This document shows, one piece after another, positions 1,924 to 23,403 of a stretch of DNA of 64,000 nucleotides. The translations under genes were made by a program, and so were the position numbers. This stretch comes from a virus. The stretch's first letter is position 1, and every line of letters starts with the position of its first letter. The DNA is taken from positions 11,009-75,008 of IMG/VR virus record IMGVR_UViG_3300027881_000008, one strand, 5' to 3'. Below the pieces are notes generated by a model. The model made no database searches, was not told the origin of the DNA, and worked only from the letters and a program-made list of their open reading frames with translations.

Positions 1924-4335
1924 GTGTCTCGCCGAAGAGCGTTAGCAAAGAAAATTACGCGTAAACAGGCTCGCGCCTACGACCGCACCGTTCCCAATCC
2001 GATGGGCGTCACCGCCATCGCCGCGGTGAACGGCCCGGGTAGCTATGCCCGCCGCTACGAGGCCACTCGCCAGCTTCTTGAGCGCGAGCCCTCCAGCCGA
2101 CGTCGCCCGGTTCGCCCCAACAAGGCCACGCGCCGGCGCATCAAGACTTGGGCCGAGTTCCAAAAGCTGGCGGCCGTGGCCAACGCTCCCCCCAAGAAGC
2201 GCCGGGCGATGTACAGGTCGTACCACCAGAAGCATACCGGCAGGCTCCCGCCCGCCTCGGCTTGGACAGAAGCGAAGCCCAAGGCGAAGCCCAAGGCGAA
2301 GCCCAAGGCCAAGGCCAAGGCCAAGCCCCGGGCGAAAGCGAAGCCCAAGCCTCGCGCAAAGGCTCCCTTGAAGCGAGCCAAGAAGCGCCAGACGAAGGCC
2401 GATTGGGTGCGCATGAAGCGCCGCGAGAAGCCTGGCGCCAGCGACGAGCAACTGAACGCTTGGTGGAACAGCAAAAAAAGAGGAGACGAGCGTCAGCGGG
2501 CTATCAGGGCGTCCAAACAGGGGCGAGCAGCGGTTGCCCGCACTCCCGCTGGCCGTGAGGCCGCGCGTAGGAAGCGGATGCTGGGGGCGCAGAAGAAGAC
2601 CGGCAAGAAGACCGGCAAGAAGACCGGCAAGAAGCGCCAAACGAAGGCCGACTGGGAGCGCGCACAACGGCGCAAACACCCCGGGGTGAGCGACAAGCAG
2701 CTCGCCGCCCGGTGGAAGTTGGGGCAGGCGTCCAAGAAGCGCTACGCAGCTTCAAAGCGCCAGCGAGCCGAGGCCAAGCGAAAGAAGCAGGTCCGGCGCT
2801 ACGGCAAAGGAAAGTTCAAGGCCGCGCGAGCTCGCGTCGGCAGCGGGGTGCCCACCGACTACTGGACCTACATGTACCGGGACAAGGGCGGTCGTATGCG
2901 GAAGATCCCCGTGTGGGCGCTCGCTGGCTACAGCAGTAGCCGCGCCGCGCAGAAGGTACGAGACGAGGGAAGCCCACGCCGCCAAAGGGCGCTGGAGAAG
3001 CGTCTCGAAGCAATCCGAGTACGGCGGGACAAAGCGGTCGCCGTGGCGAAGAGACAGATCGAAAGAGGCACTGGCCGTTACGCCATGTTCTCACCTAACC
3101 AAGAACGCACAATTACCTACGAGGAGTGGGAAGAAGACATGAGAGCAAACAGCCGGCGTCGCCGCCGTAAAAAGTCCACGAAGAAACGGCGCACCCGTCG
3201 CGTTCGCCGCAATCCTGTCCACGCGAGCGCCCGCAAGGCTGCCCCCAAGCGCCGTCGCCGCCGTAAGGCGTCGACCCGCAAGGGAATGGTCCGCACCACG
3301 GCACGTCGAGCTTTCGAGTCGAATCGCCCGAAGCGTAAGCGCAAGCGCAAGAGCACCCGCAAGGGCATGGTGCGCCGCACCTCGCGTCGTGCGTATCGAA
3401 AGAACCAGGCCGCCACGTTCGGTGGGCGCTTCGTAGAGGTGCTTCAGATCGGTGGCGTGGTCGCAGTGGGCTTTGTTGTCCAGAAAGCTGCGACCACCGG
3501 CATCGTGAAGGCAATCGGAGACAAGTTCCCCGAGAGCGTCTTGAAGTTCAAGGGCTCGCTCGTCGGTCTCGGCGTAGCTGCCGCCGGCGTGCTTATTGGG
3601 AGCGGGATGAAGTCCGCGGCGATGCAGAACTTCGCCGCTGGTATGGGCGCCGGCCTCGTGCACACGGTCGCGAAGGAGGCTCTGGCCGCTTTCGCCCCTG
3701 ACTATGCCGACTACCTCGGTGCGCTTCCATCTCAGTACACGAACGCCGAAGGAAACCCGCAGTACAGCGGTTACGGCTCGTATTACGAGTTCAGCCCCCA
3801 TCAGGTTTTTGATGGGGTCGGCGAGTACTACGAGACGGCTCCCGCGGCCGTTCCGACGAGCGGCTTCGGCCAGCTTCCCCAGCTCTACCAGGCTGCGGCG
3901 GCATACGGCCAGGCGCCTCCGGGAATCCCGCAGCTCACGCAACAGGCGGCCGGCTACGGCAACCTGGACGTGAACCAGCTCACGCAGGCGGCAGCTGGAC
4001 TCGGCGCACCGATGCTCACCCAGGCCGCCGCAGGCGCCATGGGCGAGTATGTGGTGAGCGGAGGCAAAGGGATCGGCGAGTACGAGGAGGTCACTCCTGA
4101 ATACCAGAAGCCGACCACCACGGACGAGGGGATCCACCCCGACCTGACGAGCGCCGAATACGCGCTGTCGATTGCGGAAGCGGCGGCTGGCGTCGGCGCG
4201 TTCGGCGACAGCAACGTACCGCTGCAGAGCATCGTCAATCCAACCGGCCACCCCGAGGCCATCCCAGACATGCCAGGCGGCAGCCGAGCTGGCACCTTCG
4301 CTGGCCCCAACGGAGTCTTCGGACCCGGACACTGA
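1924..4335 (+). CDS. Arg/Lys-rich DNA-condensing core-like membrane protein (putative polyprotein)
   Basis: About 490 aa of extremely basic N-terminal sequence (KPKA, KKTG, poly-R), then 2-3 hydrophobic helices, then an acidic Gly/Tyr/Gln-rich C-terminus with repeated GxG motifs. Confidence 0.75.
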   Translation: MSRRRALAKKITRKQARAYDRTVPNPMGVTAIAAVNGPGSYARRYEATRQLLEREPSSRRRPVRPNKATRRRIKTWAEFQKLAAVANAPPKKRRAMYRSYHQKHTGRLPPASAWTEAKPKAKPKAKPKAKAKAKPRAKAKPKPRAKAPLKRAKKRQTKADWVRMKRREKPGASDEQLNAWWNSKKRGDERQRAIRASKQGRAAVARTPAGREAARRKRMLGAQKKTGKKTGKKTGKKRQTKADWERAQRRKHPGVSDKQLAARWKLGQASKKRYAASKRQRAEAKRKKQVRRYGKGKFKAARARVGSGVPTDYWTYMYRDKGGRMRKIPVWALAGYSSSRAAQKVRDEGSPRRQRALEKRLEAIRVRRDKAVAVAKRQIERGTGRYAMFSPNQERTITYEEWEEDMRANSRRRRRKKSTKKRRTRRVRRNPVHASARKAAPKRRRRRKASTRKGMVRTTARRAFESNRPKRKRKRKSTRKGMVRRTSRRAYRKNQAATFGGRFVEVLQIGGVVAVGFVVQKAATTGIVKAIGDKFPESVLKFKGSLVGLGVAAAGVLIGSGMKSAAMQNFAAGMGAGLVHTVAKEALAAFAPDYADYLGALPSQYTNAEGNPQYSGYGSYYEFSPHQVFDGVGEYYETAPAAVPTSGFGQLPQLYQAAAAYGQAPPGIPQLTQQAAGYGNLDVNQLTQAAAGLGAPMLTQAAAGAMGEYVVSGGKGIGEYEEVTPEYQKPTTTDEGIHPDLTSAEYALSIAEAAAGVGAFGDSNVPLQSIVNPTGHPEAIPDMPGGSRAGTFAGPNGVFGPGH
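2272..2349 (+). repeat. coding tandem repeat (AKPK)n
   Basis: GCGAAGCCCAAG x3 followed by degenerate GCCAAG units. Confidence 0.9.
2593..2634 (+). repeat. coding tandem repeat (KKTG)x3
   Basis: AAGAAGACCGGC x3. Confidence 0.9.
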
Positions 4336-4342
4336 AACCACT

Positions 4343-4447
4343 GCGTCCGACGGGGAGCGAGCTGGCCTTACGCTCCTCGTCACATGGCGCAAACAAAAAC
4401 TAGGCCAGGGCCGTAGCGGAACCAGGCCGCTTTATCAACGGAAGCCC
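4343..4447 (+). ncRNA. candidate cis-regulatory RNA with pseudoknot upstream of the putative major capsid gene
   Basis: Stem 4349-4359/4371-4381; loop CTGGCCT (4362-4368) complementary to AGGCCAG (4402-4408) after an A-rich linker; further stem 4408-4447. Confidence 0.45.
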
Positions 4448-4466
4448 AGAGAGAACAGAGAACACC

Positions 4467-5270
4467 ATCCCTAAATTGACAAATGTGCGAGAGCGCGTCC
4501 ATCAGCCCTTTCGCGATACCCTAGTGCGGACGGCCGGTACACAGACCGGTAACGTCAGTGACAACACCAAGCTGTTTACCGTTGCGGGTAAACCAGAAGG
4601 TGCAACGAACTTGCCCAACGGATCGACGCTTCCAAGCGATCAGTCGTTCGTCGTGCTGGCTCTGCGCGTCTTCACATGGTTCCGCAACAGCATCCAGCGT
4701 CCCATGCAGCAGGGCGCGGCCCCAGGCCGGCTCGTCATCCCGCTCCCCGACGGAACCACCATCTTCGCCGGCAACGGCGACTTCAACCTTCCCTTCGGCG
4801 GTGGCCCGGTCACCGGCGCTGCCTTCGCAGCCGTGCTGAACGGGCAGGGAATCGGAGACGTCAACGACGTTCACCGATTGAACTGGCAAGCTGAAGAGCA
4901 GCTCCTATGGAGCTACGGTGCGGGCGATAAATTCTCCCTCACATCCATGCCGTCAGCGTACTTCCCATATGGCGGCGGGCTTCACGGCCAATTGCCCTGT
5001 TCGACGGATTTGATTCTGTGGAACAACGGCATGCCGTCCCAAGAGGGCATCTTGCGTCTGGCAAGAGCAATCTTGATTCCCCCGCGACAGAATATCAAGG
5101 CGGAAGCCAACATTGCGCGCCTCGATACCGGCCCCAATGCGGCGACCCTCGCCACCACCCAGGGAGCGCGTGATATGTTCTCCCTTCGCGACAACCTCAA
5201 TGCCCCGGACCTCATCAACAAGGTTATTAGTCTGACCTTTGACGGCTTGTTCAGCCGCGACGTGCAGTGA
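4467..5270 (+). CDS. putative major capsid protein (single jelly-roll-like); probable ATC start (TTG 4476 alternative)
   Basis: Beta-rich; QPFRDT..LF..TNL..G.LP..QSFVVLALR at the N-terminus and a terminal strand ISLTFDGLFSR; flanked by a structured leader and a terminator; fold is inferred. Confidence 0.5.
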   Translation: MPKLTNVRERVHQPFRDTLVRTAGTQTGNVSDNTKLFTVAGKPEGATNLPNGSTLPSDQSFVVLALRVFTWFRNSIQRPMQQGAAPGRLVIPLPDGTTIFAGNGDFNLPFGGGPVTGAAFAAVLNGQGIGDVNDVHRLNWQAEEQLLWSYGAGDKFSLTSMPSAYFPYGGGLHGQLPCSTDLILWNNGMPSQEGILRLARAILIPPRQNIKAEANIARLDTGPNAATLATTQGARDMFSLRDNLNAPDLINKVISLTFDGLFSRDVQ

Positions 5271-5277
5271 GCCGTTA

Positions 5278-5420
5278 GCAGCGCGCCCGTTTTATATGCA
5301 GCAGAAAAAAAGTAGCAGAACATAACGGCGCGTTGCGCCACACCAAGTCGCCCGGCCTGGCAAGCGCGGGGCCTATTTTCGGGTCCCGACCAAAACCGGG
5401 TCGGGCGCCTCGGTTTTTTT
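5278..5420 (+). terminator. intrinsic terminator/attenuator region
   Basis: Long hairpin 5278-5336; stem AAAACCGGG/CTCGGTTTT running into T7 (5414-5420); competing CCCGACC/GGTCGGG stem. Confidence 0.6.
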
Positions 5421-5482: not shown

Positions 5483-6514
5483 ATGTACGGAAACCAATAC
5501 GACCCAGGCTTCGCCCAAGCAGTGCAGCAGCTGCGCGCAGAGATCAATCGCAACGCGGGCGGCCTTCGCAAGTACACCGACGAGCAGATGGCCAAGATGG
5601 TCGGACGCCTGGACGAGCTGAGCCGCGTGACCAGCGCCATGAGCGCCATCCGCTCGGGGGCCACCAAGGACCCGGGAGTGCGCCTCATCGAGGACATACC
5701 AGGGCGACGGGTGCCCTACGTCATGCTCGTAGATATACCCCTAGGTGCCGACACGACGAGCATTCGAGAAGGGTCCGTCACCATCTCTCAGGAGGGACCG
5801 TTCGTCGCCGTGCGTCGCATGGCCACCTTCCAGTCGGCCTACGAGTTCCAAGTCACCGACCCGGTGAGCAGCCAAGTGGCGCGTTTCGCAGGCCGGTCGT
5901 TCGGGCGCTACCGCCCCATTCACTCTGTCTGTGACACCAACGACAGTCAGCATAATGCGTGGTCCGACGCGAGCCGTTGGTACCTAGCGGCGCTCACCAA
6001 CCCCGACGCGGTGCCAGGCCCCGCGGCCGAACTTCCCTCGGCTGCGCTCAGTCTTCCGAGCAACATGTCGAGCTTCCGCACCATGGAGTTCGATGGGCGT
6101 ATCAGCGTCATCAACGCTGGCTCGAGCTACCCCCGCCAGAACATCAGCGTGCCGTCTAGCTTCTGGGCCAGCGAGTGCAACAGTCCCGTCACCCTAGGCG
6201 CTTTGGACTTCTTCGAGCGCGGTGAAGTGCTGACCGTTCGGGTTCAGCCCAACCATGTGTCGAATCCGCCAGCCGGAAACGTCGATGGCGACTGCATCTT
6301 CCCTAACGCGGCGGCCCCAGGTTGGCCCTTTGTCGAGGGCCAGTACGACTCGCACGAAGGGATTTGTACTCCCGACGCAAGCACCCTCGCTACCATCCGA
6401 CCGTTTGAGCCAGCCCTCATCGCCAACGACCCCGTGGCCCGGCTTCCTGACGGTATCCTCACTATCGCATGGGAAGGCTACCGAATCATTCAGCCTGTTG
6501 GGCCGGTTGGATGA
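5483..6514 (+). CDS. putative second capsid/penton-like jelly-roll protein with N-terminal coiled coil
   Basis: AAGGAG SD; beta-rich GPFVAVRRMATF...FFERGEVLTVRV...LTIAWEGYRII pattern parallels the previous gene. Confidence 0.45.
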   Translation: MYGNQYDPGFAQAVQQLRAEINRNAGGLRKYTDEQMAKMVGRLDELSRVTSAMSAIRSGATKDPGVRLIEDIPGRRVPYVMLVDIPLGADTTSIREGSVTISQEGPFVAVRRMATFQSAYEFQVTDPVSSQVARFAGRSFGRYRPIHSVCDTNDSQHNAWSDASRWYLAALTNPDAVPGPAAELPSAALSLPSNMSSFRTMEFDGRISVINAGSSYPRQNISVPSSFWASECNSPVTLGALDFFERGEVLTVRVQPNHVSNPPAGNVDGDCIFPNAAAPGWPFVEGQYDSHEGICTPDASTLATIRPFEPALIANDPVARLPDGILTIAWEGYRIIQPVGPVG

Positions 6515-7296
6515 GCCATATCCTCGACCGCCGTGCGCCGGAGCAGTTCATCCGTGAGCTGTCCCAAGAGGCGCGCCTCGTCCGTCAGGGCGCGGCAGGA
6601 CAGGAGGCCGGCCCCCCAGGGCTCGGTCCCGAGCCTGCGGTGGTCCATCAGCCGGGGGGCGAGCTCCTCAACAAAATCCAAGACCCGGCGTTCGATACGG
6701 TCGAGCATCTTTTTCGGGCGCTCCCCGAGGACAGTTGGTTCTCCCCTACCACCTCGACCAAGCGCCCCATCAAGTTCGAGTTCGGCGTCTTCACCGTTCC
6801 CCAGAGCCAGTATTTTCTGGTGACCGACTACGAGTTCGTGGCGCTTCGGCAGAGCGGCATCGACCCCTTCGACTTCATGCAGGCGGCGCCGTACCGCTTC
6901 AGCGGCTTCATGGGGTTCGACATCACGCTCGATGGCCGGCGCGTGAGTAACCTCATGTACCAGCTCGACCCCGCCCCAGTGCAGTTCTTCCGTCAGGCGT
7001 TCGCGTCGCCCTTCGATCCTCGCGCGCCCGCCGCGAGCTTCAACCAAGCTGCGGCCAACAGCTTCGGCGCCGTGGCCGGCGAGGGCACGTCGCTCTTGCC
7101 CGTCCGCCCCAACGTACAGGGAAGCCGGAACATGCCCTTCACCATGATCGCCGAGCCTGGCACCAAGGTTGCGCTCTCGTGCGTCATCTTCCGCCGCGTG
7201 ACTGCCGCTCTCGCGGGCCTCCAGGCGAGCGTGTCTGGCTACTCGATCCACGCCAACACTATGAGCGCACTGCTCAACCGAATGAGGCCCAGATGA
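6511..7296 (+). CDS. putative third capsid-like jelly-roll protein
   Basis: ATGA overlap; FEFGVFTVPQSQYFLVTDYEF...PGTKVALSC...ASVSGY beta pattern. Confidence 0.45.
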   Translation: MSHILDRRAPEQFIRELSQEARLVRQGAAGQEAGPPGLGPEPAVVHQPGGELLNKIQDPAFDTVEHLFRALPEDSWFSPTTSTKRPIKFEFGVFTVPQSQYFLVTDYEFVALRQSGIDPFDFMQAAPYRFSGFMGFDITLDGRRVSNLMYQLDPAPVQFFRQAFASPFDPRAPAASFNQAAANSFGAVAGEGTSLLPVRPNVQGSRNMPFTMIAEPGTKVALSCVIFRRVTAALAGLQASVSGYSIHANTMSALLNRMRPR

Positions 7297-7520
7297 TGCA
7301 AGTAGGACCGCCGCCGCGAGGGTTTTATGGGATGGGAACCGACCCGCTTCTGCCGGGAGTCGTCCTCCCTGACTTGCCCGGTTACGTGACCGAGGAAAAA
7401 TGTTCTGCGGCCCAGTTGTCGGCTGAAGAAAAAGCCAAGGGCAGCGTGCTTCCCTGGGCGATTGGCGCCGGAGTCGGCGCCCTGGTTCTAGGACTCGCCA
7501 TAGGAAGGATGAGCAAGTGA
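7293..7520 (+). CDS. small C-terminally anchored membrane protein (FYGMG motif)
   Basis: ATGA overlap; PGYVTEE motif; TM helix then GRMSK. Confidence 0.7.
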   Translation: MMQVGPPPRGFYGMGTDPLLPGVVLPDLPGYVTEEKCSAAQLSAEEKAKGSVLPWAIGAGVGALVLGLAIGRMSK

Positions 7521-7957
7521 TGTACGGACTTGGAGAAAATGGAGCGCCTCCGGGCGGACCACCACCGCCCCCCACCCCCGGTGCCCCACCGGCCATACCC
7601 ACGCCGATCCCCGGGGCCACGGACCAGGCGAGCTGCGCGCAGCACGGCGGAACCTGGCAGGGACTCCCCCCGCCTGCGCCGCCGGGAATGGGCGTGTGTC
7701 TATCGGGCGCGTTGCCCCCCATTCCTGGGGCTCCCCCCGTACCAGGTGGCCTTCCGGCTCTTCCTCCGGGAGTCCAGAAGCCGGAGATCCCGGGATACGT
7801 GACGAAGGAGCACTTAGCCGCGTCGCTTCAGGGCGCCGCCACGCAGTGCAACACCGCGCGCGCCGAATCCAGGCGCATGTCCATCTACGTGGCCGTTGGT
7901 GTCGGCTTGGCGGGCGTGCTCATCGGTGCCGTCGTCGGAAAGAACATGAAGAAGTGA
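7517..7957 (+). CDS. Pro-rich C-terminally anchored membrane protein (MYGLG motif); paralogue of 7293-7520
   Basis: PGYVTKE motif shared with the previous gene; TM helix then KNMKK. Confidence 0.75.
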   Translation: MMYGLGENGAPPGGPPPPPTPGAPPAIPTPIPGATDQASCAQHGGTWQGLPPPAPPGMGVCLSGALPPIPGAPPVPGGLPALPPGVQKPEIPGYVTKEHLAASLQGAATQCNTARAESRRMSIYVAVGVGLAGVLIGAVVGKNMKK

Positions 7958-7959
7958 GA

Positions 7960-8071
7960 TTGACGAGCCGCAAGAGCCGGGCCCTCGGTTTGGTGTTCCG
8001 GGGGCTGTCCGCAAAAGTGATGGCCTTCCTCAGCCGCTCCGGCCGGGAGCTCGACTCTTGCGGCTCGTCGA
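7960..8071 (+). ncRNA. long rod-like intergenic hairpin (RNA-processing site or small RNA)
   Basis: Perfect 15-bp inverted repeat 7962-7976/8055-8069 extended by wobble pairs, with an internal bubble and apical stem-loop. Confidence 0.55.
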
Positions 8072-8090
8072 AACACGCGGGGGAGGCGTA

Positions 8091-9029
8091 ATGTACCGCG
8101 GCATAGGCCGGCCGCTGGGCGCGACCACGCGGGGCCTCGGTGCCCGAGAGTGGGACGACGTCCAGGAGTGGTGTCCTGGGGTGTTTGTGGAGTCCGAGAA
8201 GGACTTCTGTCCTTTTTCGCGCGCGCTTTGGTCGACCGACGAGGTCTACGTCATGCGCTTCCATGTTACTGGACTCGACGGAGGCATTCAGACGGCCTCC
8301 CAGGGGCTCAGGTGGGCGAACGCTTACGGCAACACGCTCATGACGGCGTGCCTGCCCTTCGGCTGTCCTTCCATCGAACGCCAAGACGTCAAGGGGATCG
8401 TGTTTGACAGTCAGGGCGGACCGGGCGTCTACGGCGTCGACCTCGTCGTGACCACGCAGGAGGGCGGTGCGCCCGTCTTTGGTCAGCGGGGGGTGGAAGC
8501 TACCGTTAAGATGCTCAACAAGGACCCGGACCTGCTCAGCGTCTGGCCGAATTTGCACGTAAACGACTTCCAGCCTCTTCTGATGCTCGACGAGACGGCA
8601 GCGCAGAAGGCTAGGATCACCGACTGGCGCGCAGCGCCGACGGTTTGGAGCTGGGAGCTTTGGGAACAGAACGAGGACGCGCCCGAGAGGACCAGGGGAA
8701 AGACCGACGCCTACGGAAAAGGCGAAGGGGTCTGGCTCGGTGGGACGGCGGCGCACCCCCAGGCGCGGCTCAAGCCCAAGGCGCCCACCCCCGTCGGTCC
8801 TCCCACGCCCAAACCTCCCACGCCCAAACCTCCCACGCCCAAGCCTCCCACGCCCAAGCCTCCCGAGCCGGGACCGTTGCCTTCCAAGGCCGGCCTCAAC
8901 GCGGGCACCGTTGCGGGGGTCGCCCTGGTCGCCGGGGTTGGATGGTTCGCTTTCGGCACACGTATTCGAGACCACCTGAGTGGCAAGAAGCAAAAGGAAA
9001 AACAGCATGTCCTACAAAAGCCTTGGTAA
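8091..9029 (+). CDS. virion membrane protein candidate (MYRGIG; PPTPK linker; TM)
   Basis: GGAGG SD; globular domain, (PPTPK)x4, KAGL, TM helix, basic tail. Confidence 0.75.
   Translation: MYRGIGRPLGATTRGLGAREWDDVQEWCPGVFVESEKDFCPFSRALWSTDEVYVMRFHVTGLDGGIQTASQGLRWANAYGNTLMTACLPFGCPSIERQDVKGIVFDSQGGPGVYGVDLVVTTQEGGAPVFGQRGVEATVKMLNKDPDLLSVWPNLHVNDFQPLLMLDETAAQKARITDWRAAPTVWSWELWEQNEDAPERTRGKTDAYGKGEGVWLGGTAAHPQARLKPKAPTPVGPPTPKPPTPKPPTPKPPTPKPPEPGPLPSKAGLNAGTVAGVALVAGVGWFAFGTRIRDHLSGKKQKEKQHVLQKPW
8799..8864 (+). repeat. 15-bp coding tandem repeat (PPTPK)x4
   Basis: CCTCCCACGCCCAAR x4. Confidence 0.9.
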
Positions 9030-9681: not shown

Positions 9682-9687
9682 GAAAGA

Positions 9688-9915
9688 ATGGAAACGAAAC
9701 ACATCATCCAGGTTTTGGAAGCAGCCAACCAGGGCTCGCCTCAGATCCTGCATGCTGCGGGCCGCGTGTTCGGATTGGGCGAGGCGGAGCGGGATGCGCT
9801 GGCGAAGCGGACGTTTCCGGCTTGGGCGGCGGGACTGCTTGGGATCTCGGTGGGGATCCTAGCGGGCGCAGCCATACAGCGGCGTTGGCCGGGGAAGATC
9901 CTTCCGGGGGCCTGA
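9688..9915 (+). CDS. small membrane protein
   Basis: Single TM helix followed by QRRW. Confidence 0.65.
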   Translation: METKHIIQVLEAANQGSPQILHAAGRVFGLGEAERDALAKRTFPAWAAGLLGISVGILAGAAIQRRWPGKILPGA

Positions 9916-9916
9916 T

Positions 9917-11679: not shown

Positions 11680-11688
11680 GAGACCCTC

Positions 11689-12378: not shown

Positions 12379-12381
12379 GCC

Positions 12382-13596: not shown

Positions 13597-13608
13597 TGAA
13601 GGAGTGAG

Positions 13609-14235: not shown

Positions 14236-14265
14236 GCATATCCAGGTAGAAAGAGAAGACTACAA

Positions 14266-14982: not shown

Positions 14983-14988
14983 CCACCC

Positions 14989-16519: not shown

Positions 16520-16794
16520 CCTACTCCCACCAGCAGCAGCAGCAGCACCAGCCCTACGGCCAAATCCCTGGTCTCCCCGTCCCCGGCGCTCCGGTGGGGG
16601 ACGAGGTCTTGAAGGACGTCTCGGTGCGAGCGTTCGAGCATATCTGGCCGCTAATGGAGACGCGCCTCGACGAGAAGCTCGCGCGGGAGCGGTACGTGAC
16701 GTTTGCGATGAGCGGGCTCGCCATGGCGGGATATTTTGCACTGCTGTGGGCGGTGGGCGTCAAGCTCCCGTGGCAGCGGAAATGGCGACGATAG
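16516..16794 (+). CDS. small membrane protein
   Basis: Poly-Q N-terminus, TM, basic C-terminus. Confidence 0.7.
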   Translation: MTYSHQQQQQHQPYGQIPGLPVPGAPVGDEVLKDVSVRAFEHIWPLMETRLDEKLARERYVTFAMSGLAMAGYFALLWAVGVKLPWQRKWRR

Positions 16795-17184
16795 ATGGCA
16801 TCGTACCGACCCAACTACTGGAACAACTACCCCGAGCCTTTCTACGCGGACTGGCAGCAGGAACCGATCCCCGGGTGGGGCGCCCGCCCGGTCATGGCGG
16901 GCCCAGCTCGCGTGGGGGTGGGCGCCATGATCAGCTTGGCCAAAGAGCAGAAGCTTTCGTCGCACCTTACGTTGGCCAGGATAAAGCCCCACACGTTGGC
17001 CAGGATAAATCCCCACGCGATTGTGCGGCTGCCCGGATTCGTGGGAAAGCCGCCGGCCGACGAGGGAGGAGGCGGAACCACCCCTTCAGAGCCGTCGTCC
17101 GGTCTGCGCTGGTTTATCGCGGGTGCGCTCGTCTTGTCGGTCGGCGGCATCGGCTTCTACCGTGGATGGAAGGGAAAGCGATGA
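16795..17184 (+). CDS. C-terminally anchored membrane protein
   Basis: YRPN and VGVG motifs; TM then YRGWKGKR. Confidence 0.7.
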   Translation: MASYRPNYWNNYPEPFYADWQQEPIPGWGARPVMAGPARVGVGAMISLAKEQKLSSHLTLARIKPHTLARINPHAIVRLPGFVGKPPADEGGGGTTPSEPSSGLRWFIAGALVLSVGGIGFYRGWKGKR

Positions 17185-18542
17185 GCTACCAGGGGATAGG
17201 CGCGCCGCCGGGGATGACACTGCTAGGCGGCGGCGCTGGCGCAGTAGGGCGCCGTGACCTCGGCGCAGTCGATGACCGGCCGGGGATGGCACTGCTAGGC
17301 GGCGGCGCTGGCGCAGGCTGTTCGCTCGGGTACGAGCTGTCGGGGATGGACCCGCAGAGCGCTTCGTGCCCCGGGGGCGGTTGCGACTCGGATTATTGCT
17401 GCTCTCCCCGAGACTGGCGCGACTCGGTTTATTGGAAGCTCAAGGGCGCGGTAAACTACGCGTACTTTCAAGAGGCATCTATCCGCAAATCTCTCTACCA
17501 GCTCCTCGACGTCCCTACCCCCACCGGGTTTCCGAGTCGTCTGGACGAGTACGCCTACGACGCCTGCGGGGACGAAGAGGGCCCAGCCTTTACGCAGAGT
17601 CTCGAGGCGCTGCGGGCGCGCCTCAAGCGCGCCGGGTTTAACCTGTGGAATATCTTGCCCCCCGACCGCTGGTCCCGCGAAAAGAAAGGGGTGCGCTCGG
17701 AGTGCCAGAGCGACGGCTGGCTCAGCCAGATGCGTGCTCCCTATCCCTACAAGATCAGCGGCGGGGGCTTCATGGCGCGGTTGGCCTACTGGCGCGACGG
17801 CCCCATCGAGGGAGAGCGGGCGAAGTCCGTCTACAACGTTACGGGCGGCCATCCTGGCGCCTTCAAGGACTGGCTGGCCGACAAGGCGATTCCCCTGATC
17901 GCGACTTCGCCGACGAGCACTCGTATCGAGAACTCGTCCTTCAACCCGGATGGATACGACTCTGGCGGCGACCCTAGGTGGAAGGCCAAGGCGCCGTGGG
18001 CGCTGGTGGACCGTTGGATAGGCACCACCGCGCCGGCAGAGATAGCCCCGCTCATGCTCACCTGCGGTCCCAACTCCCGCCTGGGGGGCTGCTCCGGGTG
18101 CGAGGCCCCACCCGACCGTTGGGCGGCGCAGCACGGCGGCGACCCAGGCAACCGAGTCACGATGCGCGATATGGGGAAAGCCCCCTCGATGCGCTGGTGG
18201 GCTCGCTTCTTGGACGTGTTCGCCCCTTTGCCCGACGTGGGCTGGGAGCCTGCGACGAAGGCCGGTCGCGCTGCCCAACAAAGCCGCTTCGTTCTCGCTA
18301 AAACGCCGGGGCGGGTGGCGGCCCACAGCGCTTCTCTTCCTTCGCTGATGGCGGTTAGGAAGCCAGCCCCTAGGTTCGTGGCTTCGGACGAAGGGATCGA
18401 GCGGCGCGTCGGGGGCGGCACCCCGCCGGCACCGCCGGGCAAAAGCGCCACACAAGGAGCTGTCCCATGGGTCCTGGCGGGACTTGTTGGGGCGGGCTTG
18501 GTTGGCGGCGGCGTGTGGTATTGGAGGAGCAGGGATGTATAG
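17181..18542 (+). CDS. Cys-rich surface/spike-like membrane protein, paralogue A (MSYQGIG)
   Basis: ATGA overlap; C-terminal TM + WYWR; near-identical blocks shared with the next gene. Confidence 0.75.
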   Translation: MSYQGIGAPPGMTLLGGGAGAVGRRDLGAVDDRPGMALLGGGAGAGCSLGYELSGMDPQSASCPGGGCDSDYCCSPRDWRDSVYWKLKGAVNYAYFQEASIRKSLYQLLDVPTPTGFPSRLDEYAYDACGDEEGPAFTQSLEALRARLKRAGFNLWNILPPDRWSREKKGVRSECQSDGWLSQMRAPYPYKISGGGFMARLAYWRDGPIEGERAKSVYNVTGGHPGAFKDWLADKAIPLIATSPTSTRIENSSFNPDGYDSGGDPRWKAKAPWALVDRWIGTTAPAEIAPLMLTCGPNSRLGGCSGCEAPPDRWAAQHGGDPGNRVTMRDMGKAPSMRWWARFLDVFAPLPDVGWEPATKAGRAAQQSRFVLAKTPGRVAAHSASLPSLMAVRKPAPRFVASDEGIERRVGGGTPPAPPGKSATQGAVPWVLAGLVGAGLVGGGVWYWRSRDV

Positions 18543-18955
18543 AGCAGTGGGAAAGCCGCCAGGGGTCGGTTTGGGATCGTTTGGTCCCGGCACCGCAGGC
18601 GCAGGCCCCGGCTGCAGCTTGGGCTACGAGAGGGGGGGGATGGAGCCCGAGAGCAAGGACTGCCCTACCGGGGGGTGCGACAGCGAGTTCGGCGACGCGA
18701 GGGACTGTTGCGGCGTCTCACATTGGCGAGATTCTGTCTACCACAGGATCAAGGGGGGGCAAGCCTATCAGTACTTCCAAGAGGCGGCCATTCGGAGGGC
18801 CCTTTACGACCTGCTCGACGTCCCTACCCCCACCGGGTTTCCGAGTCGTCTGGACGAGTACGCCTACGACGCTTGCGGGGACGAAGAGGGCCCAGCCTTT
18901 ACGCAGAGTCTCGAGGCGCTGCGCGCGCGCCTCAAGCGCGCCGGGTTTAACCTGT
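17505..18955 (+). repeat. 142-bp near-identical direct repeat (17505-17646 and 18814-18955)
   Basis: CTCGACGTCCCTACC...TTTAACCTGT with 2 mismatches by eye. Confidence 0.9.
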
Positions 18956-20097
18956 TCTCGATCCTTCCCCATAGCCGATGGTTCGTGGACGCCACCGGGA
19001 CCAAGAGTCCCAAAGCCATCGACGTCGTGCACTTGGCCCCGTGTAGCGACTCTCAAGAAGACGGCTGGTACAGCAAGCGTCGCGTGTACCCCTACCTGAA
19101 CGACGACTTCGTTCGGGTCAAGGTGAAAGGAAACGACGGCAAGTACCGGTGGGTCGTGAAGCCTCGCGGCACGACGACGGAAAACAAGAAGTATCCGTGG
19201 GACACGGGAGAAAGGGAAGGGGGGGAGCCCGTTTGCGCCCGGCAGGACGGGGGTTGGACCGCGCACCCCGCCATGTCCACCATACCCGGTGGGAGTAATC
19301 TGTTCGGCCCTGAAAACTCGGAACTCAAAAAGGGCTTCAAGAACCCCTGCATCGGGGGCGCGCCGACCGTCAACAAAGAGATGGCGATATTTAACGTCAC
19401 GGGCGGCAAGCCGGCCAAGTTCTGGGACTGGTGGGAGGACTTCGGAAAACCCCTCATTCGTTTCTCCCCCATCAGCAGCAGGGAACACCACTATGGGGGA
19501 CACCGAGACGCCTCTGCGACGCCGCGCTGGAAAGCGTGGAACCCCGAGCAAACGGAGAAACGGTTCACGGGCACCGTAGGTCCGGCTGAGGTGGCCCACC
19601 TCATGCTCACCTGCGGGCCCAGTTCGCGCTATGGAGCCTGCTCCGGGTGCGAGGCGCCAGCCGACCGTTGGGCGGCGCAGCACGGCGGAGACCCAGGCAA
19701 CCGAGTCACGATGCGCGACATGGGGAAAGACATCTCGATGCGCTGGTGGTCGAGGTTCTTGGACGTTTTCGCCCCTATGCCTGACGTGGGCGGCGGCGCC
19801 CCGAAAATCGACACGAGCAAGCTGAAGGCCGGGCTGAAGTTGTTCACCGCGCCGAAGAAGGGAGCGACTGGGATTTCTATCCACGGGCAGATCGCTCCAG
19901 GTGCATTAAAAGCTGCGAGCATGGCTGTTTCGAGGCGGCCTGCCCCGGTGTTAGTGGCCCACGACGAGGGCTCCGTAGACGCCCCTCCACTGCCCCCAGC
20001 GCCTGCTCCCAAAAGCAACGTCCCCTACATTCTGGGTGGCATCACGGCGGTCGGCCTGGTCAGCGTAGGGGTCTGGTATTGGAGGAAGGATGTATAA
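18535..20097 (+). CDS. Cys-rich surface/spike-like membrane protein, paralogue B (MYRAVG...GLG)
   Basis: GGAGG SD; same constant blocks; longer variable middle; TM + WYWR. Confidence 0.75.
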   Translation: MYRAVGKPPGVGLGSFGPGTAGAGPGCSLGYERGGMEPESKDCPTGGCDSEFGDARDCCGVSHWRDSVYHRIKGGQAYQYFQEAAIRRALYDLLDVPTPTGFPSRLDEYAYDACGDEEGPAFTQSLEALRARLKRAGFNLFSILPHSRWFVDATGTKSPKAIDVVHLAPCSDSQEDGWYSKRRVYPYLNDDFVRVKVKGNDGKYRWVVKPRGTTTENKKYPWDTGEREGGEPVCARQDGGWTAHPAMSTIPGGSNLFGPENSELKKGFKNPCIGGAPTVNKEMAIFNVTGGKPAKFWDWWEDFGKPLIRFSPISSREHHYGGHRDASATPRWKAWNPEQTEKRFTGTVGPAEVAHLMLTCGPSSRYGACSGCEAPADRWAAQHGGDPGNRVTMRDMGKDISMRWWSRFLDVFAPMPDVGGGAPKIDTSKLKAGLKLFTAPKKGATGISIHGQIAPGALKAASMAVSRRPAPVLVAHDEGSVDAPPLPPAPAPKSNVPYILGGITAVGLVSVGVWYWRKDV

Positions 20098-21787
20098 AGG
20101 TATCTGGGTGCCGCCGGGGATGGGCGCGTACGACGACTCTCCCGACGAGGCGGACTGGGGACATCGCAAGGTGCCCTCGCCAGCCTACCCTTGGGACGGG
20201 TGGGACAAAACTGGCAAGCACCCTGACGCGGCGGACTTCGGCTACGACACCGCCTCGGCCTATAGCCTTCTTGACGACGGCTTCCTCAACGAACAGACGA
20301 AGATCGCGCTACCCGGGATGCCAAACACCGGCGAGTTGATACAGCTGGTGGGACCACCTTCCCAGTCTGCGGTTCTCGGCGTCAGGTCGGCTCTCGAAGG
20401 GGCGACGGGGCTGCCCGTGGACAAGATCGCTTCTACCATGGGGGTCGACCTCGGCCTCATGGGGTCGATGGTGGGCAATCTGGTAAGAGGAGAGACCGAG
20501 GTCGCCCAACAACAGGCGCTCCAAATGGGAAAGGGGATCCTGAAGGCGGGGCTAGACCTCGCCTTTGGAAACATCCCAATCGTCGGGCAGATCGTAGGGA
20601 TCGCCGCCGACGTCGTGTTCGCTTTGCTGGGAAACGCGGCGAAGTTCCAAGCGGAAAAAATTCACAAGGCGACGCTCGATCAGGTGAGGAAAGAGCTGCA
20701 GAGCCGCTGCGACACGCTTTACTCGATAGGCCAAAATCCCGTGAAGACGGGGATCTCACTAGGGGACGGTTCCCTGATGGCCACGCCCTCCGACTTGTTC
20801 CGCCCGGTGAGGGAAGCCTACGAATCTGGGAGCGGCGTATTGCCGATGACACCCGCGTCTGTCTACGTGCTCCTGTGCGGCGCGGAGAGCCAAGGGTTTG
20901 GCTTCTCCCGCCAGGAATGGGAACAAAAGAACGCGGGCTACGGCATCACAATACCGCCCCCGGTCCAGCGGCGGATGTGGAAGTGCATCAAAGCGATCTT
21001 CTCAGCGGTCCAACATCCCAGTGCGCAGTACGTTCCGGGCGACGGCGGCAAGTCGTCTTACATGGTCGTCCAAGAACTGGTGCGTACGCAGAGGGAGTCA
21101 AACAACTTCTCCGAAAGATCGATCTGGATGCTCGCCACCGAGCTCGCCGCCCGCGTCACCTATTGGCACCCTGACCCCAAGAAGGAAGAATGGGGCCCTT
21201 CAGGAGCCGGCGAGTACAACCGATACTACGGGGGAAACTGCTCCGGCACCGTGATGTGGCACGGCGCGGGCGGTCAGGGGGAGGAGTGCTTCAAGCGTGG
21301 CGGCTGCCAGACCCCCCAGGTGGTCTTCAAGAAGACGCGCGGGCGCTACATGGAGTGGGAGAAGGCCGAGAAAATCTCGGGCCCGACCGATTTCGCAGTA
21401 GCTCCTCTCGTGCGCGCCATAGCATCTCCTCAGACGGGCACCTTCTGGGTCGGTCAGGGCAAGTGGGCCGCGCTCATGCGCGAAGCTTACAGGGACCCCA
21501 AAAGCGGGCGCTTGGGCCTTTACCCGAACGAGAAGTTCGTGGCCGCACAGGGTCTCGACCAGCCCCGGGAGGCCAACAGCAAGCTGACTTTGAGCCTCGC
21601 GGGCACCCAACACCTCGTCATGAACCTGAAGAAGTCCATCGACGTTCAGGACGAGGGAGCCGAGGGGGAAGAGGAAGGCCCCAGCTTGGTTCCGTGGGTG
21701 TTGGGCACCGCCGTTCTTGGCACCGGAGCCTACTTCGGGGCCCGACAGCTGGGGCGGATGGGACGGAAAAAGGGCTGGGGGAGATAA
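20090..21787 (+). CDS. large membrane-anchored protein with internal hydrophobic hairpin (possible membrane-penetration/ejection protein)
   Basis: MYKGI..PGMG start; NIPIVGQIVGIAADVVFALLG segment; C-terminal TM. Confidence 0.65.
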   Translation: MYKGIWVPPGMGAYDDSPDEADWGHRKVPSPAYPWDGWDKTGKHPDAADFGYDTASAYSLLDDGFLNEQTKIALPGMPNTGELIQLVGPPSQSAVLGVRSALEGATGLPVDKIASTMGVDLGLMGSMVGNLVRGETEVAQQQALQMGKGILKAGLDLAFGNIPIVGQIVGIAADVVFALLGNAAKFQAEKIHKATLDQVRKELQSRCDTLYSIGQNPVKTGISLGDGSLMATPSDLFRPVREAYESGSGVLPMTPASVYVLLCGAESQGFGFSRQEWEQKNAGYGITIPPPVQRRMWKCIKAIFSAVQHPSAQYVPGDGGKSSYMVVQELVRTQRESNNFSERSIWMLATELAARVTYWHPDPKKEEWGPSGAGEYNRYYGGNCSGTVMWHGAGGQGEECFKRGGCQTPQVVFKKTRGRYMEWEKAEKISGPTDFAVAPLVRAIASPQTGTFWVGQGKWAALMREAYRDPKSGRLGLYPNEKFVAAQGLDQPREANSKLTLSLAGTQHLVMNLKKSIDVQDEGAEGEEEGPSLVPWVLGTAVLGTGAYFGARQLGRMGRKKGWGR

Positions 21788-21811
21788 CCAACCACCTGTA
21801 AGGAGCGAACA

Positions 21812-22054
21812 ATGAGCGAAAAAATGAACTGGATACAAAAGCTGTCACATAGGAAAGACCCGGGGCGAGACGCCTTCGACGCGGCCCAGAAGGCGGCCCA
21901 GGAGGCGGCCGGTAAGGCGCCTGTCCAAGAGGCCGAGGCTGACCCTGTCGTGGTAGCCGAGCCCGATCCGGCTCCCGAGCCCGAACCCCCAGTTGAGGTG
22001 GCGCCCGAGCCCGAGCCCGAAAAGCCCAAGCGCGGCAGGTCGCGAAGGCGGTGA
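21812..22054 (+). CDS. small Glu/Pro-rich protein with basic tail
   Basis: AAGGAG SD; EPEP repeats; KPKRGRSRRR. Confidence 0.7.
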   Translation: MSEKMNWIQKLSHRKDPGRDAFDAAQKAAQEAAGKAPVQEAEADPVVVAEPDPAPEPEPPVEVAPEPEPEKPKRGRSRRR

Positions 22055-22590
22055 GTTACGTCGGAGTGGGCAAGCCCCCCGGCGGCGGTGGCCGTGGCGG
22101 CGGTGGCCGTGGCGGCGGTGGCCGTGGCGGTGGAGGGCACGCGGGTATGGGTCCCGGTCCTGGTCCTGGGCCGCATCCTGGGCCCCATCCTCACCCTCAC
22201 CCTCATCCCGGGCCCGGCCCCCATCCTCACCCGGGCCCTCACCACCGGCCTGGCTGGGGTAGGCGCCGTCGGCGGCTACGGTGGGGCGGCTATGCGCCGC
22301 CTGGCTACTACGACACCACGCCGTGGTACTTCACAACCGGCGACCAGTGCAGCTACTACGGAGGCCGGAAACAATGCGTATTGGCGGGTCCCAACGACTA
22401 CGGGGGCGACCCCTTCTGCGACCCTGGTTGGGTGAGGCGGTGCATCGTACCGCTCGGCAGTTGCGCCAGTCTGGGCGGGTACAAGCAGTGCATCCCTCTC
22501 CTTGCCGGCGACCCGCCTGATCCTCTATGTCCAACCGGGAACTCACGCCAGTGCGTGCTCCCTCCGCTTCGAGGCGGCTACACATGGTAG
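22051..22590 (+). CDS. Gly/Arg, His/Pro and Cys-repeat protein (MSYVGVG)
   Basis: (GGGGR)x3, (GPHP)n, poly-R, two C..GG.KQC...DP.C..G..R.C repeats. Confidence 0.7.
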   Translation: MSYVGVGKPPGGGGRGGGGRGGGGRGGGGHAGMGPGPGPGPHPGPHPHPHPHPGPGPHPHPGPHHRPGWGRRRRRLRWGGYAPPGYYDTTPWYFTTGDQCSYYGGRKQCVLAGPNDYGGDPFCDPGWVRRCIVPLGSCASLGGYKQCIPLLAGDPPDPLCPTGNSRQCVLPPLRGGYTW

Positions 22591-22603
22591 GAAGGCCGAA
22601 AAG

Positions 22604-23218
22604 ATGAAACCAGCCGGTCCCACCGCCTCCTACCGGGCCTACATCCGAGGGCTCCAGAAGCAGGCCGCACAGCTGGAGGCGTCCCTGGTGGACCTCGGCG
22701 CTCGCCGCCCCCGCCCCCCGCCGGGACTGGGGGTGCCTTGGTTGGGGGAGGCATACCAAAAAGTGAGGGAAGCAGGGGCGTACCTGGAACTGGAAGCGAC
22801 GATGGGCCAGCCCGGCGACTACGACGAGGACACGCCTGCTCGGGAAGAGTACTGGGACCAGGTCGGAGAAGCCGAGCGCGCAGAGGAGGCGGTTCGCGCG
22901 GCCATGATACGCCTGCGCCCCAAAAACCCGAAGAGCCGCACGGTCCATCCCATCAAGCCGGCCACTATTCGGTCCCAGGTATTCTCCTCTTGGCTATTCC
23001 CGTACCGTGGGCACGGCGCCGTCGAGCCCACGCCGCTTGTCGTCTACGTGTTCACGGAGTCGGGGAACCTCCGCGACCCCTACAGCTACGGCCTAGCGCC
23101 CTACTTCGGCCGGGTAGCGGAGGCCCTCCGAAAGGACCCTCTCTATGGAGACGCTGGGTGGGACAGCGTCAACGCCGCCATCAGCTACTTCTGGCTTGAG
23201 CCGGAGGCGCTCGCGTGA
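22604..23218 (+). CDS. two-domain hypothetical protein joined by RPKNP
   Basis: ORF with normal composition; coupled to the next gene. Confidence 0.6.
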   Translation: MKPAGPTASYRAYIRGLQKQAAQLEASLVDLGARRPRPPPGLGVPWLGEAYQKVREAGAYLELEATMGQPGDYDEDTPAREEYWDQVGEAERAEEAVRAAMIRLRPKNPKSRTVHPIKPATIRSQVFSSWLFPYRGHGAVEPTPLVVYVFTESGNLRDPYSYGLAPYFGRVAEALRKDPLYGDAGWDSVNAAISYFWLEPEALA

Positions 23219-23403
23219 CCAAGAAGGAGCTGAAAGAGATTGCGATCACCGCCGCCATCACGGCCGCCGCCTCGAGCGTGGCCTCGATCATAGCTAGCGG
23301 CGCAGTGGCCTACTTCATAACGCGGGCCAGCGCGAAAAAGGAGGAGGCGCGCGCGGCCCAGATGACCACCGAAGGAATGTGGCCTGAATGGCCGCCGGGC
23401 TGA
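23215..23403 (+). CDS. small membrane protein
   Basis: GGAGG SD; Ala/Ile hydrophobic stretch. Confidence 0.65.
   Translation: MTKKELKEIAITAAITAAASSVASIIASGAVAYFITRASAKKEEARAAQMTTEGMWPEWPPG

What the first reader, a model, noticed from the sequence alone, without database searches (positions are those of the whole stretch)
1924..23403. Candidate undescribed large tailless, membrane-containing virus: core protein, three jelly-roll-like capsid genes and about 16 membrane-anchored virion proteins
Seen: a 21-kb co-directional, translationally coupled block with a hyper-basic protein, three beta-rich proteins sharing a similar terminal strand (LTFDGLF, IAWEGYR, ASVSGYS), then a long run of small membrane proteins. 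The window has phage-type accessory genes (Mom-like, ArdA-like, lysins, Cro, integrase) but no recognisable terminase, portal, HK97 capsid or tail gene. Established: tailless inner-membrane viruses with single jelly-roll capsid proteins (SH1, P23-77) have adjacent paired capsid genes plus many small membrane proteins, and genomes of only about 17-31 kb. Inference: a much larger (>64 kb) relative infecting a peptidoglycan-bearing high-GC host. Myxococcota is a guess from GC content and the Cys/Pro-rich style. The packaging ATPase would have to lie outside the window.
Basis: partly seen in the sequence, partly recalled or inferred. Interest (0 to 1): 0.92.

Follow-up and report, generated by a model that had tools for sequence, protein, structure and literature searches.

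The report
Large tailless-type marine virus, unknown lineage
The block is the conserved particle-building module of an undescribed group of large (75-180 kb) marine and environmental bacterial viruses. They carry none of the known capsid, portal or DNA-packaging motor genes and probably build a membrane-containing shell from two small jelly-roll-like proteins around DNA condensed by a hyper-basic protein.

Summary
The contig is an IMG/VR virus record of 75,008 bp, about 52% complete. Window 245-28,362 is one co-directional gene run, and the finding's block lies inside it. The block holds an 803-aa protein of pI 11.3, three beta-rich orphan proteins and about 15 C-tail-anchored membrane proteins.

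The 264-aa and 343-aa genes are the hallmark. They lie side by side in 15 IMG/VR contigs of 38-182 kb, most of them over 110 kb. The 343-aa protein has more than 645 metagenomic relatives. Shorter forms (191-212 and 207-210 aa) lie next to a hyper-basic protein in a sister clade of 75-86 kb genomes.

I examined nine relatives with terminal repeats, eight of them rated complete. Pfam searches found no terminase, portal, HK97 capsid or FtsK-type ATPase in them, and no Pox_A32 in the four searched for it. No P-loop protein other than replication proteins is shared among the four large complete genomes. The two sister-clade genomes read in full have no canonical Walker A ATPase at all.

So the reading "novel tailless-type virus" is supported. 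[quoted passage not shown] is not. First-stage readers noted the same triplet in two other genomes; those notes are unchecked.

The parts
1924..4335 (+). Hyper-basic, membrane-anchored 'core' protein (803 aa, pI 11.3). It has a conserved N-terminus, about 500 aa with 23% K+R, two hydrophobic helices, and an acidic Gly/Tyr-repeat tail.
   Evidence: Orthologues with the same layout are in all 5 large genomes (pI 11.3-12.0). A 460-aa analogue (pI 12) sits in the same position in the sister clade.
4476..5270 (+). Capsid candidate 1 (264 aa). It is conserved from the first to the last residue and ends in DGLFSRDVQ.
5398..5416 (+). Terminator-like hairpin plus T-run, lying between the 264-aa gene (4476-5270) and the 343-aa gene (5483-6514).
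   Evidence: Consensus scan. This is weak: 30 such sites were found against 16 expected.
5483..6514 (+). Capsid candidate 2 (343 aa): an N-terminal helix of about 50 aa followed by a beta domain at residues 67-343.
6511..7296 (+). Third beta-rich protein (261 aa), with less conserved sequence.
   Evidence: 27-50% identity in 14 of 15 loci. The ESM Atlas's own model has pTM 0.51. The nearest named cluster is the PM2 capsid family P2_N/P2_C at a score of only 0.76. hhalign against PM2 P2 gives 0.8%.
7517..14982 (+). Run of nine C-tail-anchored membrane proteins: 7517-7957, 8058-9029, 8980-9681, 9917-10459, 10456-11679, 11689-12378, 12382-13596, 13609-14235 and 14266-14982. Several begin M-x-Y-x-G-[ILV]-G, and three carry PG_binding_1.
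   Evidence: The same kind of cluster flanks the capsid genes in all 7 genomes that I gene-called.
14989..15612 (+). Cys-rich protein with a C-terminal J-domain (DnaJ). It belongs to the 5/5 core set of the large genomes.
   Evidence: Pfam DnaJ, E 1.8e-9. Core clustering.
16516..16794 (+). Small tail-anchored membrane protein (92 aa).
17166..21787 (+). Hypervariable cassette of three large Cys-rich, C-tail-anchored proteins: 17166-18542 and 18484-20097 (paralogues) and 20090-21787. They are candidate host-recognition proteins.
   Evidence: Strains in runs X6 and X7 are about 97-99% identical up to 16925 and then differ until about 21802. Run X2 has a joint 17615>18925 between the paralogues.
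21812..23403 (+). Tail of the block. It holds an acidic 80-aa protein, a Gly/His/Pro- and Cys-rich 179-aa protein beginning MSYVGVG, a 238-aa protein, and a 62-aa membrane protein.
24112..27910 (+). Core genes just beyond the finding's end: a zinc-ribbon protein (243 aa), a glycosyltransferase-like protein (449 aa) and a GT4 glycosyltransferase (589 aa).
   Evidence: Present in 5/5 large genomes. Pfam hits.

Best explanation
The block is the virion-building module of an undescribed lineage of large dsDNA viruses of peptidoglycan-bearing bacteria. Genomes are 75-180 kb and circular or terminally redundant. This strain is marine.

Shown:
- The adjacent 264-aa and 343-aa genes are the lineage's hallmark. 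They are kept in order in two clades.
- A hyper-basic protein with membrane helices always precedes them.
- A dense cluster of C-tail-anchored membrane proteins surrounds them.
- A further conserved set lies upstream of the window: a coiled-coil protein of about 800 aa, a protein with a Cys-His-Asp motif, and other orphans.
- No known capsid, portal, terminase or FtsK-type packaging ATPase gene was found in relatives rated complete.

Inferred:
- The two proteins are single jelly-roll shell proteins that form the capsomers of an icosahedral shell.
- The shell lies over a lipid membrane filled with the tail-anchored proteins.
- The basic domain of the 803-aa protein condenses the genome on the inner face of that membrane, and its tail reaches the other side.
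- The particle therefore assembles by wrapping condensed DNA rather than by pumping DNA into a preformed head, as proposed for the archaeal virus SPV1.
- The variable Cys-rich proteins at 17.2-21.8 kb recognise the host.
- The PG-binding proteins and lysins deal with the cell wall.
For: Lineage and synteny:
- The contig is an IMG/VR virus record rated 52% complete.
- The triplet is syntenic in 15 IMG/VR contigs of 38-182 kb.
- The 343-aa protein has more than 645 relatives, and the 264-aa family has 128 clusters at 50% identity.
- The core set shared by 5/5 large genomes consists almost entirely of orphans that lie in one block in G003-G005.
- The sister clade (75-86 kb, with terminal repeats) keeps the order: coiled-coil protein, Cys-His-Asp protein, hyper-basic protein, 191-212-aa protein, 207-210-aa protein, then tail-anchored proteins.

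Missing hallmarks:
- Terminase_6N, TerL_ATPase and FtsK_SpoIIIE were absent from nine relatives with terminal repeats. Terminase_3, Phage_portal, Phage_capsid and Pox_A32 were absent from the four searched for them.
- No shared Walker A protein other than replication proteins exists. G006 and G007 have no canonical Walker A ATPase at all.
- The core orphans have no PHROG family.

Fold:
- The structural neighbours of both models are mostly vertical jelly-roll capsid proteins.
- The minimal sizes of 191 and 207 aa fit single jelly rolls.

Not chromosomal:
- Only 2 tiny MAG contigs were found among 185,579 species genomes.

Habitat and host type:
- Near-identical DNA occurs in seawater and marine metagenomes of about 10 further studies.
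- Lysins and PG-binding domains point to a bacterial host.
Against: - No particle, lipid or proteome data exist.
- A jelly-roll sandwich also occurs in spikes, pili and enzymes.
- The three proteins show no mutual profile similarity.
- Absence of an ATPase rests on Pfam models, canonical motifs and BLAST-level core analysis. A very divergent or host-supplied motor cannot be excluded.
- Pfam and PHROGs scans of whole proteomes list only the top 25 families.
Confidence: 0.52

Rival explanations
1. It is a virus of the same new lineage, but with a different particle plan. The particle would be enveloped or pleomorphic, or a nucleocapsid wrapped by an outer membrane. The 264-aa and 343-aa proteins would act as matrix, nucleocapsid or spike proteins rather than as an icosahedral shell.
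For: - Many tail-anchored membrane proteins, a DNA-condensing protein and no packaging motor fit budding or wrapping equally well.
Against: - The 264-aa protein is conserved end to end, at 50-68% identity where its neighbours fall below 35%. That is what lattice-forming shell proteins show.
- The neighbour lists are dominated by vertical jelly-roll capsid proteins.
- Paired adjacent genes of about 190 and 210 aa mimic known two-protein jelly-roll shells.
Confidence: 0.2
2. It is an enlarged member of the known single-jelly-roll viruses (Helvetiavirae: SH1, P23-77 and kin), with the packaging ATPase simply outside the window.
For: - Adjacent paired capsid-like genes followed by small membrane proteins.
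Against: - FtsK_SpoIIIE was found in 0 of 9 relatives with terminal repeats and Pox_A32 in 0 of the 4 searched. phmmer with the P23-77 and PM2 ATPases finds only unrelated kinases.
- hhalign against VP16, VP17 and VP11 gives less than 1%.
- Genomes are roughly 2.5-11 times larger than the 16-31 kb of that group.
Confidence: 0.1
3. It is not a virus. It would be a large plasmid-like element whose conserved block builds a cell-envelope or vesicle apparatus, for example plasmid-carrying membrane vesicles.
For: - There is no recognised virion hallmark.
- There are many membrane proteins and glycosyltransferases.
- The ends only show that the assemblies are circular.
Against: - No partition ATPase, relaxase, VirB4-like or FtsK-like transfer ATPase was found.
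- Amidase and SLT lysins, Mom, methylases and a NUDIX hydrolase are typical phage cargo.
- The element is essentially absent from 185,579 species genomes.
- IMG/VR classes these records as viral.
Confidence: 0.12
4. It is a very divergent tailed phage whose head, portal, terminase and tail genes are unrecognisable.
For: - Three G001 proteins hit PHROG 4577, annotated 'tail protein' (E down to 2e-15).
- The genome size is typical of large tailed phages.
Against: - The PHROG hit covers only the start of a beta-helix, pectate-lyase-like domain. The proteins are specific to G001.
- Four terminase families, the portal family and the HK97 capsid family are all absent.
- No conserved large protein or P-loop protein could be a terminase.
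- The models gave no HK97 neighbours.
Confidence: 0.05

Closest known systems
Portogloboviridae (Sulfolobus polyhedral virus 1, SPV1)
   Same: - SPV1 has an outer shell of two single jelly-roll proteins (VP4 and VP10), an inner lipid layer with many small membrane proteins, and DNA condensed by a basic protein (VP1) into a nucleoprotein core. The only enzymes assigned in its genome are a glycosyltransferase and a methyltransferase, so no packaging ATPase is listed (PMC8459092).
   Different: - SPV1 infects hyperthermophilic archaea and has a 20-kb genome. Here the host is a bacterium with a cell wall and the genome is 75-180 kb.
- The basic protein here is 460-835 aa and membrane-anchored.
- No sequence comparison was possible, because the SPV1 record is not in the collections.
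- The fold matches are not significant.
Helvetiavirae, now realm Singelaviria (P23-77, SH1, HHIV-2, HCIV-1)
   Same: - Two adjacent major capsid genes with vertical single jelly rolls, an internal membrane and a following run of small membrane proteins.
- P23-77 also carries lysins.
   Different: - Those viruses have a conserved FtsK/HerA-type packaging ATPase next to the capsid genes and genomes of 16-31 kb. Here no such ATPase was found, and there is no profile similarity to VP16, VP17 or VP11.
Double jelly-roll membrane phages (PRD1, PM2; Bamfordvirae)
   Same: - Tailless, with an internal membrane and many small membrane proteins.
- PRD1 P3, PRD1 P5 and D13-type proteins appear among the structural neighbours.
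- The PM2 capsid family is the nearest named ESM cluster for the 261-aa protein, at a score of 0.76, which is only a lead.
   Different: - Those genomes are 10-15 kb, with a single double-barrel capsid protein and a packaging ATPase.
- hhalign against PM2 P2 gives 0.8%.

Membership tests
Caudoviricetes (tailed phages) | HK97-fold major capsid protein | tested here: not met
   - Pfam Phage_capsid was found in 0 of 5 genomes, 4 of them rated complete.
- The core orphans have no PHROG family.
- No HK97 neighbour appeared for either model.
Caudoviricetes (tailed phages) | Large terminase subunit and portal protein | tested here: not met
   - Terminase_6N and TerL_ATPase were found in 0 of 9 relatives with terminal repeats.
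- Terminase_3 and Phage_portal were found in 0 of the 4 large complete relatives.
- There is no conserved P-loop protein apart from replication proteins.
Helvetiavirae / Singelaviria (P23-77, SH1) | Two vertical single jelly-roll major capsid proteins encoded side by side | tested here: inconclusive
   - Adjacent conserved genes of 264 and 343 aa (191 and 207 aa in the sister clade).
Helvetiavirae / Singelaviria (P23-77, SH1) | Sequence or profile homology to VP16/VP17-type capsid proteins | tested here: not met
   - hhalign of A2, A6 and A7 against P23-77 VP16, VP17 and VP11 gives probability of 0.3% or less.
- There is no PDB profile hit.
Helvetiavirae / Singelaviria (P23-77, SH1) | FtsK/HerA (A32-like) genome-packaging ATPase | tested here: not met
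   - FtsK_SpoIIIE was found in 0 of 9 relatives with terminal repeats, and Pox_A32 in 0 of the 4 searched.
- phmmer and tblastn with the P23-77 and PM2 ATPases gave only a dNMP-kinase-like chance hit.
Portogloboviridae (SPV1) | Basic nucleocapsid protein that condenses the DNA, and no packaging ATPase | tested here: inconclusive
   - A hyper-basic protein (pI 11.3-12, 23-28% K+R) is conserved directly upstream of the capsid genes in both clades, and no ATPase was found.
- DNA condensation itself cannot be tested here.
Portogloboviridae (SPV1) | Homology of the shell proteins to VP4 and VP10 | tested here: inconclusive
- The SPV1 sequence record was not available.
Bamfordvirae (PRD1, PM2) | [quoted passage not shown] | tested here: inconclusive
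   - No protein was modelled as a double barrel.
- The 261-aa protein was not modelled by me. The ESM Atlas lead to PM2 P2_N/P2_C scored 0.76.
- hhalign against PM2 P2 gives 0.8%.
Internal-membrane viruses in general | Lipid membrane in the particle | not testable with these tools
   Only the genes can be seen: 15-25 tail-anchored membrane proteins cluster around the capsid genes in all 7 genomes that I gene-called.

The most novel reading that the evidence does not exclude
These genomes represent a realm-level new lineage of bacterial viruses. They would enclose 75-180 kb of dsDNA without any ATP-driven packaging motor. A membrane-anchored protamine-like protein would condense the genome, and a membrane and a shell of two unrelated small jelly-roll proteins would then assemble around it. 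That would be a bacterial counterpart of the archaeal SPV1 plan at up to nine times the genome size, and it would include a maturation or sorting system that reads the N-terminal M-x-Y...G-x-G tag on the tail-anchored proteins.
Probability: 0.35. Interest if true: 0.93.

Novelty: new variant of a known kind. Interest (0 to 1): 0.86.

Why it matters
From my own knowledge I recall no cultured tailless phage much larger than that.

A widespread lineage of 75-180 kb genomes would do three things:
- Enlarge the known range of bacterial virus architecture. The lineage has hundreds of metagenomic relatives and recurs in marine metagenomes, yet shows no hallmark gene of any established realm.
- Show that virus-detection pipelines mislabel such genomes. 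In the ESM Atlas taxa, the phylum most often recorded for them is Uroviricota (tailed phages).
- Give a testable case of motor-free packaging of a large genome.

It also supplies two new candidate capsid protein families that could serve as markers for virus discovery.

Tried and rejected
- Complex prediction on the 343-aa and 264-aa proteins gave no verdict (score 0.00).
- No RNA run was listed as a holder. The one possible RNA run (X20) gave only short, diverged contigs.
- tblastn of the 343-aa and 565-aa proteins against 50,697 phage records found nothing.
- Foldseek against BFVD found nothing significant.
- Profile searches against PDB sequences for the three proteins and for the Cys-His-Asp protein found nothing. 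The protease or transglutaminase-like reading of that protein therefore rests on a motif only.
- hhalign among the three capsid candidates showed no paralogy, only a shared PRQN[IV] motif.
- The second ESM Atlas look returned only unnamed viral clusters.
- The SPV1 record is not in the collections.
- ARAGORN called a tRNA-Gly at 3955-4031 on the minus strand. It lies antisense inside the 803-aa gene and has no Rfam support, so it is probably false.
- Three literature searches found no description of this group.
- The host could not be identified. MAG labels on relatives (Gemmatimonadota, Methanomicrobiales, 'Deltaproteobacteria') are inconsistent and sit on small contigs.

Full report
**What the DNA is.**
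The window is bases 11,009-75,008 of a single 75,008-bp contig, which is an IMG/VR virus record. It has no terminal repeat, and ORFs run off both ends. CheckV rates it 52% complete. The full genome should therefore be about 144 kb. GC content is 62-73% along the window.

**Checking the observation.**
My codon-usage gene calls give an unbroken + strand gene run from 245 to 28,362, with many 4-base overlaps.
- The first gene of the finding (1924-4335) encodes 803 aa with pI 11.3 and 23% Lys+Arg. It has two hydrophobic helices and an acidic Gly/Tyr-rich tail.
- Three beta-rich proteins follow at 4476-5270, 5483-6514 and 6511-7296.
- The 264-aa gene starts at TTG 4476. Homologues carry ATG, GTG or TTG at exactly that codon and align from residue 1.
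- About 15-17 proteins in the block have a single C-terminal membrane helix followed by a basic tail.
- Apart from weak PG_binding_1 hits in three proteins and a J-domain in one, nothing in the block matches Pfam or PHROGs.
- Over the whole contig the listed families are replication, modification and lysis genes: DnaB, primase, SNF2, C5-methylase, Mom, NUDIX, GT4, SLT, amidase_2, and a 1198-aa tyrosine recombinase. No head, portal, terminase or tail family is listed.

**Relatives.**
- The 343-aa protein has more than 645 relatives in metagenomes, the best 120 at 52-81% identity and none with a Pfam domain.
- IMG/VR holds 15 contigs of 38-182 kb with a relative. The 264-aa and 343-aa genes are in the same order in all of them, and the 261-aa gene follows in all but one truncated locus.
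- Identity is highest for the 264-aa protein (50-68%) and the 343-aa protein (33-62%), lower for the 261-aa protein (27-50%), and mostly undetectable for the neighbours.
- Four of these relatives have direct terminal repeats and are rated 100% complete: G001 143.7 kb, G003 179.4 kb, G004 135.4 kb and G005 136.2 kb. I fetched them whole.

**Core genes.**
All-against-all BLASTP of my gene calls gives a small core shared by all five genomes:
- the basic protein and the three beta-rich proteins;
- the J-domain protein, a zinc-ribbon protein and two glycosyltransferases;
- a 175-aa protein;
- four orphans that lie upstream of the window on the contig: a coiled-coil protein of 795-934 aa, a 208-aa protein with an invariant Cys...His...Asp pattern, and proteins of 286 and 253 aa.

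In G003-G005 all of these lie in one co-directional block of about 30-40 kb. The morphogenesis module is therefore larger than the finding's coordinates. In this contig it is split into a leftward and a rightward arm.

**A sister clade.**
A full HMMER search with the 264-aa profile found 128 clusters, including full-length forms of 190-250 aa. These lead to IMG/VR genomes of 75-95 kb, of which at least five have terminal repeats and four are rated complete. In the two that I fetched whole (G006 and G007) the order is the same:
1. a coiled-coil protein;
2. the Cys-His-Asp protein;
3. a 460-aa protein of pI 12 with membrane helices;
4. a 191-212-aa homologue of the 264-aa protein;
5. a 207-210-aa protein;
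6. a run of tail-anchored proteins.

The 207-aa protein is homologous to the 343-aa family (hhalign 90.5%, E 1.4e-6). The conserved pair therefore has a minimal size of about 190 plus 210 aa.

**Missing hallmarks.**
- Pfam Terminase_6N, TerL_ATPase and FtsK_SpoIIIE were absent from nine relatives with terminal repeats, eight of them rated complete. Terminase_3, Phage_portal, Phage_capsid and Pox_A32 were absent from the four large complete relatives. All of these families but Terminase_6N were also sought in this contig, and none was found. The control genomes gave hits.
- Motif scans show Walker A proteins only among DnaB, DnaC-like, SNF2, MoxR-type and kinase-like proteins. None of these is shared as a packaging candidate.
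- G006 and G007 have no canonical Walker A ATPase at all.
- The P23-77 and PM2 packaging ATPases find nothing.

**Fold evidence.**
- AlphaFold2 with a 45-row alignment gives the 343-aa protein pLDDT 65.7 and pTM 0.50. The model has a helix of about 50 residues followed by a beta domain.
- With 16 rows, the 264-aa protein gets pLDDT 58.5 and pTM 0.56, an eight-strand-type sandwich with inserted helices.
- Foldseek gives no significant match. Even so, both hit lists are dominated by jelly-roll capsid proteins: D13, Sputnik, SGIV, SPV1, PCV2, p72, PBCV-1, P23-77 VP17, PRD1 and STIV.
- There is no sequence or profile similarity to any solved structure, to P23-77 VP16, VP17 or VP11, or to PM2 P2, or among the three proteins themselves.

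**Mechanism proposed.**
The closest working model is SPV1. [quoted passage not shown] Here the basic protein is far larger and carries its own membrane anchor. It could therefore tie condensed DNA to the inner face of a membrane while its tail reaches the shell side.
- The coiled-coil protein of about 800 aa is a candidate size-determining or scaffolding protein.
- The J-domain protein may recruit host Hsp70.
- The Cys-His-Asp protein may process the shared N-terminal tag.

All of these roles are inferred.

**Variation between strains.**
Near-identical DNA is present in seawater and marine metagenomes of about ten further studies. Contigs from two runs are about 97-99% identical from 1924 to 16,925. 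They then differ until about 21,802, exactly over the three large Cys-rich anchored proteins. This is what host-recognition genes tend to do.

**Not chromosomal.**
Among 185,579 species genomes, only two contigs of 2-4 kb in MAGs carry a relative.

**Comparison and verdict.**
- The element fails the tested defining features of tailed phages.
- It lacks the ATPase and the sequence kinship that define the SH1/P23-77 group, now realm Singelaviria (PMC12714852).
- It works most like SPV1, but in bacteria and at 4-9 times the genome size.
- Three literature searches found no description of it.
- I rate it a new variant of a known kind (a tailless, membrane-containing, jelly-roll virus). There is a substantial chance that it deserves a lineage of its own at the highest rank.
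- First-stage notes of this scan report the same triplet on two other genomes. I did not check those records.

Noticed in passing
window 16926-21801: Hypervariable cassette. Strains in two other sequencing runs match at about 97-99% identity up to 16925 and again from about 21802, but not over the three large Cys-rich tail-anchored proteins. One run shows a recombinant joint 17615>18925 between the two paralogous genes.
   Followed up: partly
window 7517-22590; also G001, G003-G007: Many tail-anchored proteins begin with M-(S/T/A)-Y followed within a few residues by G-x-G or G-D. Examples are MSYVGLG, MNYTGIG, MSYQGIG, and MSYFRSPFGDG in the sister clade. In internal 15-aa windows the strict motif occurs in 0.27% of cases.
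   Followed up: partly
L001:2255-2881 (-), upstream of the window: A core 208-aa protein has invariant D-C-D, H-V and D residues, spaced as in transglutaminase-like or papain-like cysteine proteases. It has no Pfam, PHROG or PDB-profile hit.
   Followed up: partly
window 3775-3843 and 9035-9103 (approx.): An identical 23-aa peptide (GSYYEFSPHQVFDGVGEYYETAP) occurs in the tail of the 803-aa protein and near the N-terminus of the 233-aa PG-binding protein. Related G-[LM]-G-E-Y-F repeats fill the tails of the basic proteins in all relatives.
   Followed up: partly
window 5080-5095 and 6131-6145; C-termini of both genes: The 264-aa and 343-aa families share two invariant short motifs in the same order: P-R-Q-N-[IV], and a terminal [FW]-[DE]-G-[LY]. 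Overall profile similarity is absent (hhalign P 0.037 for the first motif).
   Followed up: partly
L019:16875-19769, L026, L020:1310-2755 (G001): There are three adjacent beta-helix (pectate-lyase-like) proteins. They share an N-terminal module of about 60 aa that also heads at least three other G001 proteins. This looks like a common particle-anchor domain on exchangeable spikes. PHROG 4577 'tail protein' matches only the start of the beta helix.
   Followed up: partly
L068:60-1731: One IMG/VR relative (90 kb) carries two tandem copies of the 264-aa gene.
   Followed up: no
window 3955-4031 (-): ARAGORN calls a tRNA-Gly(GCC) antisense inside the 803-aa gene. Rfam finds no tRNA there, so it is probably a false call.
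   Followed up: yes
window 48855-52451: The 1198-aa tyrosine recombinase has a 1222-aa counterpart in G001 that gives the same integrase hits. The oversized form is therefore a feature of the group and not an artefact.
   Followed up: partly
window 23388-24068, 27907-28362, 14989-15612: A NUDIX hydrolase, a dual-specificity phosphatase (in 4 of 5 large genomes) and a J-domain protein (5 of 5) sit in or beside the morphogenesis block.
   Followed up: no
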